Shown here in pieces: positions 1 to 3,747 of a DNA stretch of 3,747 bases. Within the stretch, counting starts at the first letter, position 1, and each line of letters opens with the position of its first letter. The position numbers and the translations under genes are program-made. The stretch lies in NCBI RefSeq assembly GCF_003334255.1, contig NZ_QOWU01000116.1; one strand, 5' to 3'. Under the pieces are notes generated by a model. The model ran no database searches, was not told the origin of the DNA, and saw only the letters and a list, made by a program, of their open reading frames with translations. Source of the stretch: Escherichia coli (GTDB lineage: Bacteria; Pseudomonadota; Gammaproteobacteria; Enterobacterales; Enterobacteriaceae).

Positions 1-134
1 GTGAAGACAGCGACCTCCGTCTGGCCGGTTCGGATTCGTACCTCGCAGAGGTCTTTCCTCGTTACCAGTGCCGTCACTATGACGGTTAAACAGATGACGA
101 TCAGGGCGATTAACATCGCCTTTTGCTGCTTCAT
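1..134 (-). CDS. hokD: Hok-family type I membrane toxin HokD/RelF, 3'-truncated by the window edge (first 44 codons present)
   Basis: Minus-strand ATG at 134-132 with AGGAG 9 nt upstream (complement of 144-148). My manual translation is MKQQKAMLIALIVICLTVIVTALVTRKDLCEVRIRTGQTEVAVF, which I recognise as the Hok/Gef-family toxin encoded downstream of relE in E. coli. It is below the size cutoff of the ORF track and runs off the window at position 1. Confidence 0.85.
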   Translation of the reverse strand, partial: MKQQKAMLIALIVICLTVIVTALVTRKDLCEVRIRTGQTEVAVF

Positions 135-205
135 AGCCTGCTTCTCCTGTCAACGCAAAGCAGAAGTGTCACCTTCGGTGCGAAACAGAGATGTCATGCT
201 TTGGT

Positions 206-493
206 TCAGAGAATGCGTTTGACCGCCTCGCTATATACTTCCGAGCGTTCTCTTTTCCCAACAGAAATCACGAAAACGACAACTTTCTCGTCTATAACCT
301 GGTATACAAGGCGATAGCCTGAAGACCGGAGCTTAATCTTGTAACAATCAGGCATACCACGGAGCTTGTTTGCTTCAATCCGGGGTGACTCAAGTACTTC
401 AACCAGCTTCTTTTTCAACTGTTCACGTACCGTCGAGCCCAGCTTTCGCCATTCCTTTAGTGCCCGCTCGTCAAAATCCAGAAAATACGCCAT
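206..493 (-). CDS. relE: RelE type II toxin (ribosome-dependent mRNA endonuclease)
   Basis: 95-aa ORF MAYFLDFDERALKEWRKLGSTVREQLKKKL...VISVGKRERSEVYSEAVKRIL, recognised from memory as E. coli RelE. Its ATG (493-491) overlaps the relB stop codon by 1 nt (TGATG on the minus strand), the canonical coupled arrangement. Confidence 0.96.
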   Translation of the reverse strand: MAYFLDFDERALKEWRKLGSTVREQLKKKLVEVLESPRIEANKLRGMPDCYKIKLRSSGYRLVYQVIDEKVVVFVISVGKRERSEVYSEAVKRIL

Positions 494-732
494 CAGAGTT
501 CATCCAGCGTCACACGTACTGGCTTAGGATTACGAAGCCGTTCTTTCACTATCTCCACAAGTTCAGCATCTTCATCACTCAGGAGTGTCTGTTTGAACGG
601 CAAGCGTTCATTGTCAGCGATATACTCGAGCATGAGACGAAGCGCTTCAGAAGGAGTTACACCCATTTTTTCAAGCGCGGCGTAAGAACGCGCTTTAAGT
701 TCATCGTCAATACGCAGGTTAATGCTACCCAT
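493..732 (-). CDS. relB: RelB type II antitoxin (ribbon-helix-helix autorepressor)
   Basis: 79-aa ORF MGSINLRIDDELKARSYAALEKMGVTPSEALRLMLEYIADNERLPFKQTLLSDEDAELVEIVKERLRNPKPVRVTLDEL, recognised as RelB. GAGGTG Shine-Dalgarno sits 6 nt upstream of the ATG (complement of 739-744). The gene lies immediately upstream of relE in the same orientation. Confidence 0.96.
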   Translation of the reverse strand: MGSINLRIDDELKARSYAALEKMGVTPSEALRLMLEYIADNERLPFKQTLLSDEDAELVEIVKERLRNPKPVRVTLDEL

Positions 733-742
733 GTCTTACACC

Positions 743-796
743 TCTTGTAATTACAAATGTCATTACAAGTATCGCACTACAACATGCTTAGGGCAA
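743..796 (-). promoter_or_regulatory. relBE promoter with relO operator
   Basis: Minus strand reads TTGCCC (791-796) - 17 nt - GATACT (768-773), followed by CTTGTAATGACATTTGTAATTACAAG, which holds two TTGTAAT repeats and a perfect 12-bp palindrome TTGTAATTACAA (745-756). This matches the known RelB/RelB-RelE autoregulatory operator architecture. Exact -35/-10 assignment is by eye. Confidence 0.7.
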
Positions 797-1062
797 GTCA
801 CGAAGGAAGTCAGAAAGTAGTCGTAAGAACGGTGATCACTGTCCGCTTTGTGCCAGGAGCAGCCATTGCTAAGTCCATCCTGTATTGTGCAGGTCAGCTC
901 GTTTTTAAAGAGTCCGGCCATCATCTTACTGGTACAGACACCATATACTTTGTGACGGTCAGGCTACATATGCACAACTCAACTTATTCATCTATTTTTT
1001 GCTTTAGCATGTCAGTGTTGCTTTCTCGTCGGCGGGTGAGCGGTGACCTGACCTGTCGATAA
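757..1062 (+). CDS. ydfV: Hypothetical 101-aa ORF divergent from relB; position and length correspond to the annotated E. coli prophage ORF ydfV; coding status doubtful
   Basis: It is the only ORF of 60 aa or more in the relB-flxA gap that does not overlap a confident gene. Its ATG lies inside the relO operator, it has no Shine-Dalgarno, and the product is S/T/V/R-rich with no motif I recognise. The symbol is assigned from synteny (hokD-relE-relB-ydfV-flxA) and length as I recall them, not from sequence identity. Confidence 0.3.
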   Translation: MSLQVSHYNMLRASHEGSQKVVVRTVITVRFVPGAAIAKSILYCAGQLVFKESGHHLTGTDTIYFVTVRLHMHNSTYSSIFCFSMSVLLSRRRVSGDLTCR

Positions 1063-1214
1063 AGGAACGTAACACGTTTTATGCAACACCCGCATGCGGC
1101 AGAAAATTATTGCCGAACGTTTACCCCTGTCAACAAGCTTTACTTTCTGAGGCGCGCCAGCCCGCGAGGAAAACAATCTGAACATCAAACAATTAATGAC
1201 ACAAGAAATACGAT

Positions 1215-1241
1215 TAAAGATTTTTTTGTGCATGCCGATAG
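1215..1241 (+). promoter_or_regulatory. Sigma-28 (FliA) class 3 flagellar promoter driving flxA
   Basis: TAAAGATT (1215-1222) - 11 nt - GCCGATAG (1234-1241) against the consensus TAAAGTTT-N11-GCCGATAA, a 7/8 match in each element. It sits 24 nt upstream of the flxA start codon. Confidence 0.8.
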
Positions 1242-1264
1242 TGCTTTTTTAAAAGGAGAAATCT

Positions 1265-1597
1265 ATGTCTGTCACAATTCAGGGAAATACCTCAACCGTT
1301 ATTTCAAACAACTCCGCCCCGGAAGGAACATCAGAAATAGCCAAAATCACAAGACAAATTCAGGTGCTGACTGAAAAGCTTGGGAAAATCTCATCGGAAG
1401 AGGGGATGACGACACAGCAGAAAAAAGAAATGGCTGCATTGGTACAGAAGCAAATTGAAAGCCTCTGGGCTCAACTGGAGCAGTTGTTAAGGCAGCAGGC
1501 AGAGAAAAAGAATGAAGACGCGACAGTTCAGCCTGATAAAAAAGAAGAGAAAAAAGACGATACAAATACCGCTGGCACCATTGATATTTACGTCTAA
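1265..1597 (+). CDS. flxA: FlxA, FliA-regulated protein (small hydrophilic, coiled-coil-like, K/E/Q-rich)
   Basis: 110-aa ORF with AAGGAG (1253-1258) 6 nt upstream of the ATG, a sigma-28 promoter directly upstream and an intrinsic terminator directly downstream. The product MSVTIQGNTSTVISNNSAPEGTSEIAKITRQIQVLTEKL... is recognised as FlxA of the E. coli Qin prophage. Confidence 0.9.
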   Translation: MSVTIQGNTSTVISNNSAPEGTSEIAKITRQIQVLTEKLGKISSEEGMTTQQKKEMAALVQKQIESLWAQLEQLLRQQAEKKNEDATVQPDKKEEKKDDTNTAGTIDIYV

Positions 1598-1611
1598 GTG
1601 ACAGCCGTATT

Positions 1612-1634
1612 GTGGCCCTCATCGGGCCACTTTT
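1612..1634 (+). terminator. Rho-independent terminator of flxA
   Basis: GTGGCCC (1612-1618) - TCATC loop - GGGCCAC (1624-1630) followed by TTTT (1631-1634), starting 15 nt after the flxA stop codon. Confidence 0.75.
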
Positions 1635-2033
1635 CGCCATCAGCCTTTTCTTTAAAGACATATTATCTTTGTATCATTTCTGATAGTTAACATTACAAGA
1701 TATAAGTAATGGACGCACTCCCAATTAGTCTATTTAAATCGCCACGAGTTTAACTGACAACCCATGATCAATTATGAATTGCAACTATTTCTGTAGTCAC
1801 TTTTGTGGGGACAGTCCACAAAACTGCCAACTTCCGCTTCTTGCTCTTAGCGGACATTAGCATAGGCTATTTACCATAACGCCTCATTACGCGCACCGCC
1901 CAGACTGACTCAGCGCGTTTCTGGCATATCCCCGGTAAAACAAGTAACAAACCACCCGAAAATGAACACCAGAAACGCGACTTAAGAATCTACCCTATGA
2001 ATGGATATGCACTCAACCGAATCGATCTTGGTT

Positions 2034-3347
2034 TCAATCTTTTTTATCGGGATCAGGCTTCTTTTTAGGTAACTTCGGGGGCTTAACTTGCTGATGACTT
2101 TGCGTTCGGCGCGTAAGCCAGGGATGGTCAGCTTTAGGTTTAACATAGTATTTTGAGCGTAAATCAATACGGGCATTATCCACTCGTTCATGGACACTCT
2201 TTTCATCATCCAGTGGTATAGGCTCCGGGCCATCAACATACTTTTCCCAGCCCAGCGCTTTCCCGTCATACAGAACGTTAATTTCACCGTCAAAGTTCTC
2301 GCATACAGTAACAACCGAATGCCTAAGTCGATATCCCCGGCCCTCACTGCGTACCTGAAACGCACTGCTTTTGTACTGGAAAGTGAGATTTTTAGACAGA
2401 ACGCGCTTCGCCTGTAGGCTGAAGATATAACCCAGTTCCTCTTCAGAATGGTGCACATCAAGATGAGCATTATCAGTAGTACGAGGCGACGTAGCGAACC
2501 GGTTGTTATAGGCTTCAATAAAGGTCGGCAACCATGCATTTGCTGTTTCAATATCACTGATATTCTGAAGCCGCATTTCTTTGACCAGCCTGTCCTGTAG
2601 TGTCTGATTGGCGCGCTCTACCCGCCCTTTTGCCTGCGGGCTGTTGGCATGGATTGGCTCGATGCCCAGTGTCTTTATCGCACGAGTGAACTGGGTCAGC
2701 TCACCTTCCCGCTCTGGGTTATTTACCCTGAATATACTGTGTCTATCAGAGTAGAGAGCGAGCGATACGCCATGATCATTAAGGTAACCCCGGAGGGTTT
2801 CCATGTAAGCCCGGGTTGTTTCAGCAGGCACAAAACGCAACGCCATCAACGCACTGGTGGCATCATCAATGAAAACGATCAGTGTACATCTGGGGCCTCG
2901 ATTTTCAAACCAGTCATGAGGTGAGCCATCAATCTGGATCAGTTCACCGTAAGATGGTCGTCGCATGCGGCGTTGATATATACGGGCAATTTTACGACGG
3001 CGTTCACGCCATAACCCCTCTTCTATCATCCACTTTCTGAGAGTTTCAACGGATAAAGATAAACCGTGTATCTCGCGCAATTTTTCGCACGCAAACGTAG
3101 GTCCAAAATCAGCGTAACGGCCTTTGAGGAGTGAAATTACTGTTGCTCTGAATTCAGTAGAAAAGGAATTATTAGGACGCTTTCCACGTCGGTGGGAAAC
3201 CAGACCAGAAGGCCCTTCATTTCTATACCGTTGCACCAGACGTTTAACCTGCCGAATAGAAATGCCAATGCGTGCCGCAGCTTGTTCCTGAATAATCTGA
3301 AGTCGGTGGAGTTCCTTATGACTCATCGTAACAGTCTCTTTGATCAT
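2034..3347 (-). CDS. DDE transposase with N-terminal helix-turn-helix and integrase-core (rve-like) catalytic domain; IS481/ISNCY(IS1202-group)-like
   Basis: 437-aa ORF. The N-terminus (ELHRLQIIQEQAAARIGISIRQVKRLVQRYR) looks like a helix-turn-helix. Candidate catalytic triad in typical rve context and spacing: D in LIQIDGSPHDW, D in LALYSDRHSIF, E in AKGRVERANQTLQD. The C-terminus is basic and proline-rich (KPPKLPKKKPDPDKKD). GGGGGA Shine-Dalgarno sits 6 nt upstream of the ATG. Family placement is by motif recall, not alignment. Confidence 0.9.
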   Translation of the reverse strand: MIKETVTMSHKELHRLQIIQEQAAARIGISIRQVKRLVQRYRNEGPSGLVSHRRGKRPNNSFSTEFRATVISLLKGRYADFGPTFACEKLREIHGLSLSVETLRKWMIEEGLWRERRRKIARIYQRRMRRPSYGELIQIDGSPHDWFENRGPRCTLIVFIDDATSALMALRFVPAETTRAYMETLRGYLNDHGVSLALYSDRHSIFRVNNPEREGELTQFTRAIKTLGIEPIHANSPQAKGRVERANQTLQDRLVKEMRLQNISDIETANAWLPTFIEAYNNRFATSPRTTDNAHLDVHHSEEELGYIFSLQAKRVLSKNLTFQYKSSAFQVRSEGRGYRLRHSVVTVCENFDGEINVLYDGKALGWEKYVDGPEPIPLDDEKSVHERVDNARIDLRSKYYVKPKADHPWLTRRTQSHQQVKPPKLPKKKPDPDKKD

Positions 3348-3355
3348 GAAAAATC

Positions 3356-3375
3356 CCCCAGAGAATTGTCTGGGG
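3356..3375 (-). promoter_or_regulatory. Stem-loop in the transposase 5' leader that would sequester the Shine-Dalgarno
   Basis: The minus-strand RNA would read CCCCAGA-CAAUUC-UCUGGGG, 7-bp arms with a 6-nt loop. The 3' arm overlaps 4 of the 6 nt of the GGGGGA Shine-Dalgarno (3354-3359), which lies 6 nt before the ATG at 3347. Confidence 0.4.
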
Positions 3376-3524
3376 ACATTTTAGAATGGTTCAAAGGGGA
3401 CATTACAGCTTGGTGTTAACAATAGCCTGCTTCTCCGTGCCTTTCGGCACGTAAGAGGCTAACCTACATGTGTCTAGCATGAAATTGGCCTCAGATTAAT
3501 GTTAAGCGTCTTGCAGGACGCGTA

Positions 3525-3707
3525 ATGTTAACTGGGGCTTTTCTCTATCTGCCGTTGGTGTCCATGCCCGAGGCAGATAGCCTCAAGCACCCGCAGTCAT
3601 TCTACTTAACTAAGATTTCCCCGCAAACCGTTTTTGTCCAGCACAGTAAATATCCAACTAAACCAATGGAGTTCGCTGTATTTACCGCCAGTATTCAATG
3701 CACATGA
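3525..3707 (+). CDS. Hypothetical 60-aa protein, unknown function
   Basis: ORF with AGGA (3515-3518) 6 nt upstream of the ATG. Its TGA stop (3705-3707) overlaps the ATG (3704-3706) of a following in-frame-shifted ORF, the ATGA arrangement typical of translationally coupled genes. I do not recognise the product. Confidence 0.3.
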   Translation: MLTGAFLYLPLVSMPEADSLKHPQSFYLTKISPQTVFVQHSKYPTKPMEFAVFTASIQCT

Positions 3708-3747
3708 CCGCCATGAACACCCCTAAAAAAAGGGCATTTATATATCC
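3704..3747 (+). CDS. 5' end of a hypothetical ORF continuing beyond the window (MTAMNTPKKRAFIY...)
   Basis: ATG at 3704 overlaps the stop of the preceding ORF, with a second in-frame ATG at 3713. The reading frame is open to the window edge. Only 14 codons are visible, so the call rests on the coupling geometry alone. Confidence 0.25.
   Translation, partial: MTAMNTPKKRAFIY

What the first reader, a model, noticed from the sequence alone, without database searches (positions are those of the whole stretch)
1635..2033. About 400 bp non-coding stretch between the flxA terminator and the transposase 3' end
No ORF of 60 aa or more with a ribosome-binding site occupies this region; I found only peptides of 7-23 codons. 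The stretch is AT-rich at its left end and contains the palindrome and the candidate inverted repeat described above. It may be element-internal non-coding DNA, a remnant of deleted prophage genes, or a small RNA locus.
Basis: inference. Interest (0 to 1): 0.25.

Follow-up and report, generated by a model that had tools for sequence, protein, structure and literature searches.

The report
Plasmid-type cer site inside a transposon
The 400-base "empty" stretch is internal DNA of a 3.3-kb cargo-carrying transposon: the half next to the transposase gene is an unannotated relative of the ColE1 cer site, which plasmids use to resolve multimers, and the other half is the non-coding end of the swappable flxA gene cassette.

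Summary
The stretch is real and non-coding, but it is not an IS end, a prophage remnant or random spacer. Window 148-3421 is one 3,274-bp ISEsa1-type (IS1202-family) transposon. It has a 22/30 terminal inverted repeat (IRR 148-177, IRL 3392-3421) and a 15-bp target duplication (133-147, 3422-3436). Two plasmids carry independent insertions with different duplications, and other E. coli have the exact empty site. The finding lies inside this element and has three parts. (1) 1869-~2033, read on the minus strand, is a cer-type Xer site: XerC arm GGTGCGCGTAA, 7-nt centre, XerD arm TTATGGTAAAT (11/11 to ColE1 cer), an ArgR-box-like motif 107 nt upstream (ColE1: 106), accessory-sequence homology to ColE1 cer (z=8.1 with the core excluded), and an Rcd-like stem-loop with compensatory changes. 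(2) 1829-1858 is a 30-bp palindromic unit that, with a partner at 838-867, bounds a cassette that differs between copies. (3) 1635-1828 is the AT-rich tail of the flxA cassette, found only with flxA; its function is unknown. No inverted repeat here exceeds chance. An independent sRNA is possible (Rcd-like) but unproven. Interest is moderate: known kinds of element in a context not found described.

The parts
1612..1630 (+). flxA intrinsic-terminator-like hairpin (GTGGCCC-TCATC-GGGCCAC, then TTTTCGCC). It lies just left of the finding and defines its left border.
   Evidence: Sequence; RNAfold of 1598-1830; coordinates.
1635..1828 (.). AT-rich non-coding tail of the flxA cassette (GC 0.36). It is cassette-specific DNA and is absent from ISEsa1 copies that carry other cargo. 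Function unknown.
   Evidence: Homology of other ISEsa1 copies starts at 1829-1839. The stretch occurs in about 1,196 E. coli genomes, nearly always at 99% identity or more, in single copy, always next to flxA. One phage record carries it and no diverged homologue was found.
1676..1700 (.). 25-bp segment that is tandemly duplicated in some strains (ATCC 8739, ETEC6333). It is the only polymorphism seen in the stretch.
   Evidence: Alignment.
1801..1823 (.). Palindrome TTTTGTGG-GGACAGT-CCACAAAA, 5 nt from the cassette junction. Function unknown.
   Evidence: (I19).
1829..1858 (.). 'Unit A': 30-bp imperfect palindrome (minus strand AATGTCCGCT-aagagcaaga-AGCGGAAGTT) that marks the border between the conserved transposase/cer core and the variable cassette.
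   Evidence: Units with exactly 10-nt spacers recur in all related loci: 28 hits in 335 kb against 0.55 in shuffles (many hits are homologous copies). Homology breakpoints fall at its edge.
1869..1897 (-). Xer recombination core. XerC arm GGTGCGCGTAA (1897->1887), 7-nt central region TGAGGCG (1886->1880), XerD arm TTATGGTAAAT (1879->1869).
   Evidence: The XerD arm is 11/11 to ColE1 cer; the XerC arm is 10/11 to dif and to psi (reference sites in PMC2410131 Table 2). An identical 34-nt core occurs in the Rop-encoding ColE1-type plasmid pKFu019_3. In diverged ISEsa1 copies the arms are conserved and the central region varies.
1914..1979 (-). Rcd-like long stem-loop (GCGTTTCTGG at 1978->1969 pairs with CCAGAAACGC at 1924->1915). 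Its loop carries the block GGGTGGTTTGTTAC (1957->1944), shared with ColE1 cer.
   Evidence: Folds at -30 to -36 kcal/mol on the minus strand against -19 on the plus strand. The consensus structure including ColE1 has 29 pairs, 5 of them with compensatory changes.
1998..2011 (-). ArgR-box-like motif TGCATATCCATTCA. Its centre is 107 nt from the XerC arm.
   Evidence: The corresponding spacing is 106 nt in ColE1 cer and 107 nt in pKFu019_3.
1987..2012 (-). Position homologous to ColE1 Pcer (my reading of ColE1: TTGCAT-15 bp-TAAAAT). Here it is GTGCAT-14 bp-TAGATT, a weak promoter at best.
   Evidence: Alignment. The 15-bp Pcer spacer is stated in PMC5935869. The assignment of the hexamers is my inference.
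2034..3347 (-). ISEsa1 / IS1202-family transposase, 437 aa. It lacks 9 residues (SINRHITQE) in the N-terminal HTH region relative to the 446-aa plasmid copies.
   Evidence: NCBIfam NF033594, 452 bits (cut-off 250); BLASTP against the L006 copy.
3392..3421 (-). IRL of the transposon (TGTTAACACCAAGCTGTAATGTCCCCTTTG).
   Evidence: All copies share this end and diverge immediately outside it.
148..177 (+). IRR of the transposon (TGTCAACGCAAAGCAGAAGTGTCACCTTCG).
   Evidence: 22/30 identical to IRL, against a maximum of 20 in 300 shuffled windows. It is the best match on the whole plus strand.
133..147 (.). 15-bp target-site duplication ATAGCCTGCTTCTCC (hok Shine-Dalgarno plus AT of the start codon). 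The second copy is at 3422-3436.
   Evidence: (D11). L006 and L009 have different 15-bp duplications. The empty site carries one copy.
838..867 (.). 'Unit B', the partner palindrome of unit A, upstream of the relB promoter and inside the ydfV ORF. The flxA cassette lies between units B and A.
   Evidence: (I4).
3421..3592 (-). Orphaned 5' half of the hok/sok locus (sok, mok start), separated from the hokD coding sequence (1-133, minus strand) by the insertion.
   Evidence: Rfam RF01794 sok, 104 bits, E=9e-24.

Best explanation
The stretch is internal non-coding DNA of a 3,274-bp ISEsa1-type (IS1202-family) cargo transposon inserted into the Shine-Dalgarno/start-codon region of a prophage hok gene. 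Read in the direction of the transposase gene, the order is: transposase stop, then a cer-type Xer site, then a 30-bp palindromic junction unit, then the non-coding tail of the flxA cassette. Shown by sequence and comparison: the cer-type site has an ArgR box, an Rcd-like stem-loop and XerC and XerD arms. Inferred: when the element sits on a plasmid, host XerC/XerD with ArgR and PepA would act on this site to resolve plasmid multimers. The transposon would then carry a plasmid-maintenance kit (cer-like site plus the relBE addiction module). In the chromosome, including E. coli K-12, a single copy has no partner site and is probably an inert passenger. Unit A and its partner unit B delimit the slot in which different copies carry different cassettes; how cassettes are exchanged is unknown. 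The 194 bp on the flxA side has no recognisable function. Most likely it is the flxA 3' flank that travelled with that cassette.
For: Transposon: a 22/30 inverted repeat at 148-177 and 3392-3421 (shuffle maximum 20) and a 15-bp direct repeat flanking it. The same 3.3-kb element sits in an Enterobacter IncF plasmid and a Salmonella IncI plasmid, each in a different hok-family locus with a different 15-bp duplication. A compact 2,575-bp derivative (L028) has a 13/15 duplication. The predicted empty site is found contiguously in other E. coli in the same prophage context (H147: 458-nt span, 99.8% identity; about 1,071 genomes with at least 80% coverage in one place). cer-type site: the core matches the published XerC/XerD arms. 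An identical 34-nt core occurs in a ColE1-type plasmid. The ArgR-box-like motif is 107 nt from the core, against 106 in ColE1. The 190 nt upstream of the core aligns to ColE1 cer with z=8.1 (window) and z=15 (diverged copy L014b), core excluded. A shared stem-loop has 5 compensatory pairs and is strand-asymmetric in stability. The tail is conserved in ISEsa1 copies whose transposase DNA is only 70-76% identical. Cassette border: homology with copies carrying other cargo starts at 1829-1839 and stops at 859. Two plasmids with the same backbone differ only between the two units.
Against: No experiment: Xer, ArgR or PepA binding and recombination are inferred from sequence alone. The central region is 7 nt (cer 8, dif 6), and I do not know whether that length has been tested. 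The Pcer-equivalent hexamers are poor with a 14-bp spacer, so the Rcd-like RNA may not be made. The window's accessory region shows no significant similarity to that of pKFu019_3 (z=1.4), so the family is diverse and the alignment rests mainly on ColE1 and on L014b. The covariation set is small: 6 sequences, several closely related. The ISfinder definition of ISEsa1 (1609 bp, TIR 15/22, no TSD; PMC10132070) differs from my boundaries, and I could not inspect that reference sequence. The window's transposase has a 9-aa deletion, so this copy may be immobile.
Confidence: 0.78

Rival explanations
1. The stretch contains the right end of a 1.6-kb ISEsa1 (its 3' untranslated region plus terminal inverted repeat), and flxA lies outside the IS.
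For: ISfinder lists ISEsa1 as 1609 bp (PMC10132070 Table 7). Measured from IRL in an intact copy, that length ends inside unit A. Many plasmid copies share homology only from window 1829 onward.
Against: No inverted match to IRL exists at or near that position: best 10-11/22, and nothing in 1635-2033 beats shuffles. No target duplication is reported for that definition. The 148/3421 boundaries, by contrast, give a 22/30 repeat, 15-bp duplications in three independent insertions and a matching empty site. Copies with other cargo still end in relBE plus the same IRR.
Confidence: 0.07
2. The stretch is an independent small-RNA gene: an Rcd-like regulatory RNA transcribed on the minus strand from about 1980 to about 1910, possibly active in E. 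coli K-12.
For: The stretch is homologous to the part of ColE1 cer that encodes Rcd. The stem-loop is conserved with compensatory changes and is much more stable on the minus strand. Rcd is a roughly 70-nt single stem-loop (PMC5935869). RNA from 'ydfW.flxA.IGR' is captured on Hfq in K-12 RIL-seq (124 and 80 chimeric fragments).
Against: The promoter-equivalent hexamers are GTGCAT-14-TAGATT, and the consensus scan found no promoter-like site there. No terminator-like site lies in the stretch. There is no Rfam match. The RIL-seq sRNA score is 0.0013 and 0.0008, and the RNA is mostly first in the chimera, as targets are. ArcZ pairing to the minus-strand XerC arm is not beyond chance (23/300). In ColE1, Rcd is induced only in plasmid multimers (PMC2831885), a state a single chromosomal copy cannot reach.
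Confidence: 0.2
3. The stretch is a decayed remnant of deleted prophage genes or of the hok locus, with no present function; the resemblance to cer is a relic or coincidence.
For: The left half (1635-1828) has no recognisable feature and no homologue outside this element. The chromosomal copy has no partner site to recombine with.
Against: The insertion-free prophage joins hokD directly to its sok region, so nothing was deleted at this position. The block also travels on plasmids. The cer-like part is conserved about as well as the transposase gene across copies with 70-90% DNA identity, with arms conserved and centre variable. The spacing of its parts matches ColE1 to within 1 nt. A chance match to a 22-nt two-arm pattern in 7.5 kb is negligible.
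Confidence: 0.1

Closest known systems
ColE1 cer (and related multimer-resolution sites of ColE1-type plasmids), including the Rcd RNA
   Same: The core is XerC arm / central region / XerD arm, with a XerD arm identical to cer. The ArgR-box-like motif sits at the same distance (107 vs 106 nt). The accessory region is homologous, with the shared block GGGTGGTTTGTT. A long stem-loop occupies the Rcd position.
   Different: The central region is 7 nt rather than 8. The Pcer-equivalent hexamers are weaker, with a 14-bp spacer. The site lies directly after a transposase gene inside a transposon, and in many strains in a chromosomal prophage, not on a small multicopy plasmid.
IS1202-family insertion sequences that target Xer sites (ISAjo2/ISAba32 group) and 'transporter IS' such as ISKpn21
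   Same: Same transposase family (NF033594). The ends begin 5'-TGT. The family is known for target specificity, for association with Xer sites, for long duplications in some subgroups (15-17 bp) and for passenger genes.
   Different: In the ISAjo2 group the IS sits 5-6 bp outside the XerC arm of a pdif or dif site with a 5-bp duplication. Here the Xer site is inside the element, downstream of the transposase. The target is the start-codon region of hok-family (in one diverged copy, ldr) toxin genes, and the duplication is 15 bp. The published description of ISEsa1 gives no duplication and no target.
Acinetobacter dif modules (gene modules bounded by pdif Xer sites)
   Same: Short palindromic sites of about 28-30 bp bracket discrete accessory-gene modules that differ between otherwise identical backbones.
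   Different: The arms of units A and B (AATGTCCGCT / AGCGGACATT, 10-nt spacer) do not resemble XerC or XerD arms. Their spacers differ between the two ends. No recombinase is implicated.
relBEF (relB-relE-hokD) operon of the E. coli K-12 Qin prophage
   Same: This is the same locus: K-12 is 100% identical to window 1-2218. Earlier work proposed that relBE integrated into the hokD locus (Ramisetty & Santhosh 2016, as cited in PMC6379469).
   Different: That proposal, as far as I could read it second-hand, names no vehicle. Here the vehicle (transposase, ends, 15-bp duplication, empty site) is identified, and it also brought flxA, ydfV and the cer-like site.

Membership tests
cer-type Xer multimer-resolution site | Core of two 11-bp arms (XerC, XerD) around a 6-8-bp central region | tested here: met
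   GGTGCGCGTAA-TGAGGCG-TTATGGTAAAT at 1897->1869. The XerD arm is 11/11 to cer; the XerC arm is 10/11 to dif and psi.
cer-type Xer multimer-resolution site | About 180 bp of accessory sequence on the XerC side, homologous within the family | tested here: met
   190 nt upstream of the core against ColE1 cer: z=8.1 (window) and z=15 (L014b), above all 500 shuffles. Against pKFu019_3 z is only 1.4.
cer-type Xer multimer-resolution site | ArgR box about 100 bp from the core | tested here: met
   TGCATATCCATTCA, centre 107 nt from the XerC arm; ColE1 106, pKFu019_3 107. ArgR binding itself was not tested.
cer-type Xer multimer-resolution site | Rcd coding region (single stem-loop RNA) | tested here: met
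   A stem-loop at the homologous columns is shared with ColE1: 29 pairs, 5 with compensatory change, in a small sample. It is more stable on the minus strand.
cer-type Xer multimer-resolution site | Pcer promoter (15-bp spacer) driving Rcd | tested here: inconclusive
   The homologous position reads GTGCAT-14 bp-TAGATT and was not found by the consensus scan. The ColE1 hexamer assignment is my inference from the stated 15-bp spacer.
cer-type Xer multimer-resolution site | XerCD-, ArgR- and PepA-dependent resolution of directly repeated sites | not testable with these tools
   Needs a genetic or biochemical assay.
IS1202-family IS end (terminal region of ISEsa1) | Terminal inverted repeat beginning 5'-TGT that matches the other end | tested here: not met
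   Nothing in 1635-2033 matches IRL or IRR beyond chance. The matching repeat is at 148-177.
IS1202-family IS end (terminal region of ISEsa1) | Target-site duplication immediately outside the end | tested here: not met
   No repeat of the IRL flank occurs near 1829-1842. The 15-bp duplication is at 133-147 and 3422-3436.
IS1202-family transposon (whole element 148-3421) | IS1202/ISNCY-type DDE transposase, TGT ends, target duplication, empty site | tested here: met
   NF033594 at 452 bits; 22/30 repeat; three different 15-bp duplications; empty site.
Trans-acting small RNA gene | Own promoter, intrinsic terminator, discrete transcript | tested here: inconclusive
   No promoter-like or terminator-like site on the consensus scan within the stretch, apart from two weak minus-strand promoter-like sites in the AT-rich part, and the total number of hits is not above shuffles. 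No Rfam hit. RIL-seq shows RNA from the region, but it is target-like.

The most novel reading that the evidence does not exclude
ISEsa1-type elements are a family of cargo transposons that home to the start codon of type I toxin genes (hok, ldr) and carry their own plasmid-stability kit (cer/Rcd-like site plus relBE). They also contain a cassette slot bounded by 30-bp palindromes (AATGTCCGCT-N10-AGCGGACATT). These palindromes would be recombination sites of a mechanism not yet described, perhaps the transposase itself acting on internal sites, that exchanges accessory-gene cassettes. The left half of the finding would then be one end of such a mobile cassette.
Probability: 0.2. Interest if true: 0.7.

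Novelty: new member of a known kind. Interest (0 to 1): 0.45.

Why it matters
First, it gives a concrete identity to an unannotated 400-bp gap in the best-studied bacterial genome. E. coli K-12 carries this sequence unchanged between flxA and 'ydfW', and half of it is a cer-family recombination site with an Rcd-like hairpin. A chromosomal cer-like site could act as a docking point for plasmids with a compatible site, and that can be tested. Second, it revises the description of ISEsa1. The published record gives 1609 bp, no target duplication and no target. The comparative data here show a unit of at least 3.3 kb with a 15-bp duplication, which places it with the long-duplication IS1202 subgroups. 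They also show repeated insertion at the Shine-Dalgarno/start codon of hok-family toxin genes. Third, it supplies the vehicle for the long-noted oddity that hokD lacks its sok/mok control region and is co-transcribed with relBE: relBE, ydfV, flxA and the cer-like site arrived together on this transposon. 'YdfW' is a transposase fragment, and ydfV straddles a cassette junction. Fourth, an IS1202-family element that carries an Xer site inside it, while relatives insert next to Xer sites, hints at an evolutionary link worth following.

Tried and rejected
1. I looked for the remainder of the hok gene on the minus strand of the stretch, expecting a simple insertion with hok continuing at about 1829. 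No hok-like ORF is there; the hok coding sequence is at the far end (1-133).
2. I searched for an inverted repeat of IRL near 1829-1842, at 1684-1720 (GTTAACATTACAAG...GTAATG) and at 1906-1933. None is better than chance.
3. An Rfam scan at E<=10 found nothing in the stretch.
4. The consensus promoter/terminator scan gave totals not above shuffles.
5. I looked for homologues of 1635-1828 in phages and, at low stringency, in E. coli genomes. It is found only in this element.
6. I considered that the unit A/B arms are transposase-binding sites because they resemble the inner IRL motif (TAATGTCCCC). The match alone is not significant (68/500), so it remains a hypothesis.
7. I considered units A and B as att-type or Xer-type sites. 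Their spacers differ from each other and their arms are unlike Xer arms.
8. I checked whether the alternative cassettes encode a recombinase. They have no Pfam, NCBIfam or PADLOC match.
9. ArcZ pairing with the region is complementary at the XerC arm on the minus strand, but the energy is not significant.
10. I could not obtain Ramisetty & Santhosh 2016 or the ISfinder reference sequence.
11. For copies L012-L016, no far end or duplication was found within the 6 kb of flank held, so their full extent is unknown.

Full report
**Observation.** The window is the relBE-flxA part of a Qin-type lambdoid prophage of E. coli. Its genes are hokD (1-133, minus strand, cut by the window edge), relE (206-493, minus), relB (493-732, minus), ydfV (757-1062, plus), flxA (1265-1597, plus) and a 437-aa transposase ORF (2034-3347, minus).

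The finding, 1635-2033, is the gap between the flxA terminator hairpin (1612-1630) and the transposase stop codon. No ORF of 60 aa or more lies within it. The left part is AT-rich (GC 0.36 against 0.47) and a palindrome sits at 1801-1823. The stretch is 100% identical in E. coli K-12 MG1655, where nothing is annotated in it.

**The stretch lies inside a larger transposon.** NCBI annotation names the transposase 'IS1202-like element ISEsa1', and it matches NCBIfam NF033594 at 452 bits. All copies share one end...GGTGTTAACA at window 3421, which on the transposase strand reads 5'-TGTTAACACC. They diverge immediately beyond it.

The other end is not in the finding. Nothing in 1635-2033 matches the end repeat better than shuffled sequence. 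The best match to IRL on the whole plus strand is at 148-177: TGTCAACGCAAAGCAGAAGTGTCACCTTCG, 22/30 identical, against a maximum of 20 in 300 shuffles. The 15 bp outside it (ATAGCCTGCTTCTCC, 133-147) recur exactly outside IRL at 3422-3436.

- The same 3.3-kb unit sits in an Enterobacter IncF plasmid (duplication ATGGCCTTCTTCTCC) and in a Salmonella IncI plasmid (duplication ATCATAGCCCCTCCA), each in a different hok-family locus.
- A compact derivative, L028, has a 13/15 duplication.
- I built the predicted uninterrupted locus (window 1-147 joined to 3437-3747). It occurs as one contiguous piece in other E. coli, in the same prophage neighbourhood (H147: 99.8% over a 458-nt span; about 1,071 genomes with at least 80% coverage in one place).

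So window 148-3421 is a 3,274-bp transposon that brought relBE, ydfV, flxA and the finding with it. Its insertion split a hok/sok locus. The sok/mok half (Rfam RF01794, 104 bits) is at 3421-3592 and the hokD coding sequence is at the other end. Harmer and Hall list ISEsa1 as 1609 bp with no target duplication and no target (PMC10132070). A 1609-bp unit measured from IRL would end inside the palindromic unit described below.

**Two evolutionary halves.** ISEsa1 copies with other cargo are homologous to the window only from 1829-1839 rightward. A Klebsiella plasmid copy carries about 10.5 kb of nickel and chromate resistance genes in place of ydfV'-flxA. It shares window 158-859 (relE, relB) and 1829-3492 with the window.

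Hence 1829-2033 belongs to a conserved core with the transposase, and 1635-1828 belongs to the flxA-specific cargo. The latter occurs in about 1,196 E. coli genomes and one phage record, nearly always at 99% identity or more and always next to flxA. It has no diverged homologue elsewhere. Its only polymorphism is a 25-bp tandem duplication of 1676-1700.

**The conserved half is a cer-type Xer site.** Across copies whose transposase DNA is only 70-90% identical, the tail after the stop codon stays conserved. On the minus strand it contains GGTGCGCGTAA-TGAGGCG-TTATGGTAAAT (1897->1869).

The published reference sites are dif GGTGCGCATAA-TGTATA-TTATGTTAAAT, ColE1 cer GGTGCGTACAA-TTAAGGGA-TTATGGTAAAT and psi GGTGCGCGCAA-...-TTATGTTAAAC (PMC2410131 Table 2). 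The XerD arm is therefore identical to cer, and the XerC arm is one base from dif and from psi. In diverged copies the arms are kept while the centre varies.

- A Rop-encoding ColE1-type plasmid (pKFu019_3) has the identical 34-nt core.
- cer-type sites also need accessory sequence with an ArgR box (PMC2831885). The window has TGCATATCCATTCA with its centre 107 nt from the XerC arm. ColE1 has TGCATAGGTATTCA at 106 nt, and pKFu019_3 has TGCATAATCATTCA at 107 nt.
- With the core excluded, the 190 nt upstream align to ColE1 cer with z=8.1. A more diverged ISEsa1 tail (L014b) aligns with z=15.
- The alignment shares the block GGGTGGTTTGTT, flanked in both sequences by a long-range stem. The stem sequence differs: ColE1 has GCGCGATC...GATCGCGC and the window has GCGTTTCTGG...CCAGAAACGC. 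A consensus fold including ColE1 has 29 pairs, 5 of them with compensatory changes.
- The stem is far more stable on the minus strand: -36.5 against -19.4 kcal/mol.

This is the position of Rcd, the roughly 70-nt single-stem-loop RNA made from Pcer inside cer (PMC4393325, PMC5935869). In ColE1, the hexamers that fit the published 15-bp spacer are TTGCAT and TAAAAT; that assignment is my inference. The window has GTGCAT-14 bp-TAGATT, a poor promoter.

**The junction unit.** Ten bases beyond the XerD arm lies a 30-bp imperfect palindrome at 1829-1858 (minus strand AATGTCCGCT-aagagcaaga-AGCGGAAGTT). A partner lies at 838-867, upstream of the relB promoter. Such units always have a 10-nt spacer and come in two spacer types. 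They recur in all related loci: 28 hits in 335 kb against 0.55 in shuffles, many of them homologous copies.

They bracket the variable DNA. Two plasmids with 99.8% identical backbones differ only between the units, one carrying the flxA cassette and the other an 810-nt ORF. The nickel-resistance variant breaks at the same positions, and L028 carries a third cassette.

The outer arm and spacer stay with the backbone, and the inner arms travel with the cassette. The arms resemble the inner part of IRL (TAATGTCCCC), but that match is not significant on its own. The alternative cassettes encode no recognisable recombinase. The mechanism of exchange is unexplained.

**Transcripts.** Rfam finds nothing in the stretch, and the consensus scan gives no enrichment of promoters or terminators. 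Published K-12 RIL-seq data list an RNA 'ydfW.flxA.IGR' with 124 and 80 chimeric fragments. It has an sRNA score of 0.0013 and 0.0008 and is mostly first in the chimera, as targets are. Its single partner in exponential phase has the values of ArcZ (PMC8175672 Table S1). ArcZ's CGCGCACC is complementary to the minus-strand XerC arm, but the duplex energy is matched by 23 of 300 shuffles. So the region is transcribed to some extent, and an independent sRNA is not shown.

**Interpretation.**
- Shown: the stretch is internal to a transposon; its transposase-proximal half is a member of the cer family by core, spacing, accessory homology and stem-loop; its distal half is the tail of one of several alternative cassettes.
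- Inferred: on plasmids the site would let host XerCD, ArgR and PepA resolve multimers. The element would then carry two plasmid-stability functions, the cer-like site and relBE, while it inserts into a third (hok/sok).
- Inferred: in the chromosome the single copy is probably inert. The window's transposase also lacks 9 residues of its HTH region, and in K-12 it is reduced to the 49-codon 'YdfW'.
- Not known: the function of 1635-1828 and of the 1801-1823 palindrome.

**Novelty.** I found no description of a cer-like site in ISEsa1 or in the Qin prophage. This Xer core does not occur in the searchable literature. Earlier work proposed that relBE integrated into hokD (cited in PMC6379469; the original paper was not available). 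The recent Hok survey does not mention IS1202 or ISNCY elements. The components are of known kinds, and what I found undescribed is their combination and context. I rate interest at 0.45.

Noticed in passing
window 148-3421 (IRR 148-177, IRL 3392-3421, duplication 133-147 and 3422-3436): The whole relE-relB-ydfV-flxA-transposase block is one 3,274-bp transposon with a 15-bp target duplication. The exact empty site exists in other E. coli. This differs from the published description of ISEsa1 (1609 bp, no duplication).
   Followed up: yes
window 3421-3592 (minus strand) and 1-133 (minus strand): A complete sok/mok 5' region (Rfam sok, 104 bits) is separated from the hokD coding sequence by the insertion. 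This explains why hokD lacks its antisense control region and is co-transcribed with relBE.
   Followed up: yes
IRL flanks in window, L006, L009, L013, L020, L007 and L014: IRL abuts the Shine-Dalgarno/start codon of a hok-family gene in several independent contexts (Rfam sok hits adjoin IRL). In a diverged Citrobacter copy it abuts an ldr/rdlD type I toxin locus (...TTATATG|TGTTAAG). This suggests homing to type I toxin start sites. Three other copies (L012, L015, L016) have flanks I could not identify.
   Followed up: partly
window 838-867 and 1829-1858; L005 1989-2018 and 2997-3026; L016 7523-7552 and 8111-8140: 30-bp palindromic units (AATGTCCGCT-N10-AGCGGACATT) with two conserved spacer types bracket cassettes that differ between otherwise identical backbones. 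The mechanism is unknown.
   Followed up: partly
window 757-1062 (ydfV): The ydfV ORF runs across unit B and the backbone/cassette junction at 859/860. Its first third and the rest therefore have different histories, and it has no family match. It is probably not a real gene.
   Followed up: partly
window 2034-2183, and L001 (K-12): K-12 'YdfW' is the last 49 codons of the ISEsa1 transposase. K-12 is identical to the window up to 2218, where a deletion joins it to ydfX-dicC.
   Followed up: yes
window about 3285 (transposase codons 21/22): This copy's transposase lacks 9 residues (SINRHITQE) in the N-terminal helix-turn-helix region and has one substitution relative to the 446-aa plasmid copies. 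It may be unable to bind its ends.
   Followed up: yes
window 1676-1700; L039, L040: A 25-bp segment is tandemly duplicated in E. coli ATCC 8739 and ETEC6333.
   Followed up: yes
L004 about 3001; L003 and L005 about 3160/3358 (window 1992): Other insertion sequences have hit this region. ISEsa2 (IS110 family) sits inside unit A in one plasmid. IS26 cuts the cer-like site at the same position (window 1992) in two plasmids.
   Followed up: no
window 1887-1901 (minus-strand RNA): K-12 RIL-seq lists RNA from the flxA-ydfW gap as a partner of an sRNA whose values match ArcZ. ArcZ's CGCGCACC is complementary to the XerC arm on the minus strand, but the predicted duplex is not better than shuffles (23/300).
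   Followed up: partly
window 1215-1241: A near-consensus sigma-28 (FliA) promoter, TAAAGATT-N11-GCCGATAG, lies upstream of flxA, inside the cassette.
   Followed up: no
L010 16290-17395: In the Klebsiella nickel-resistance variant, a 1.1-kb IS481-like element replaces the outer 11 nt of IRR. The 15 bp next to IRL are replaced by a sequence that matches that element's end, which points to a secondary rearrangement.
   Followed up: no
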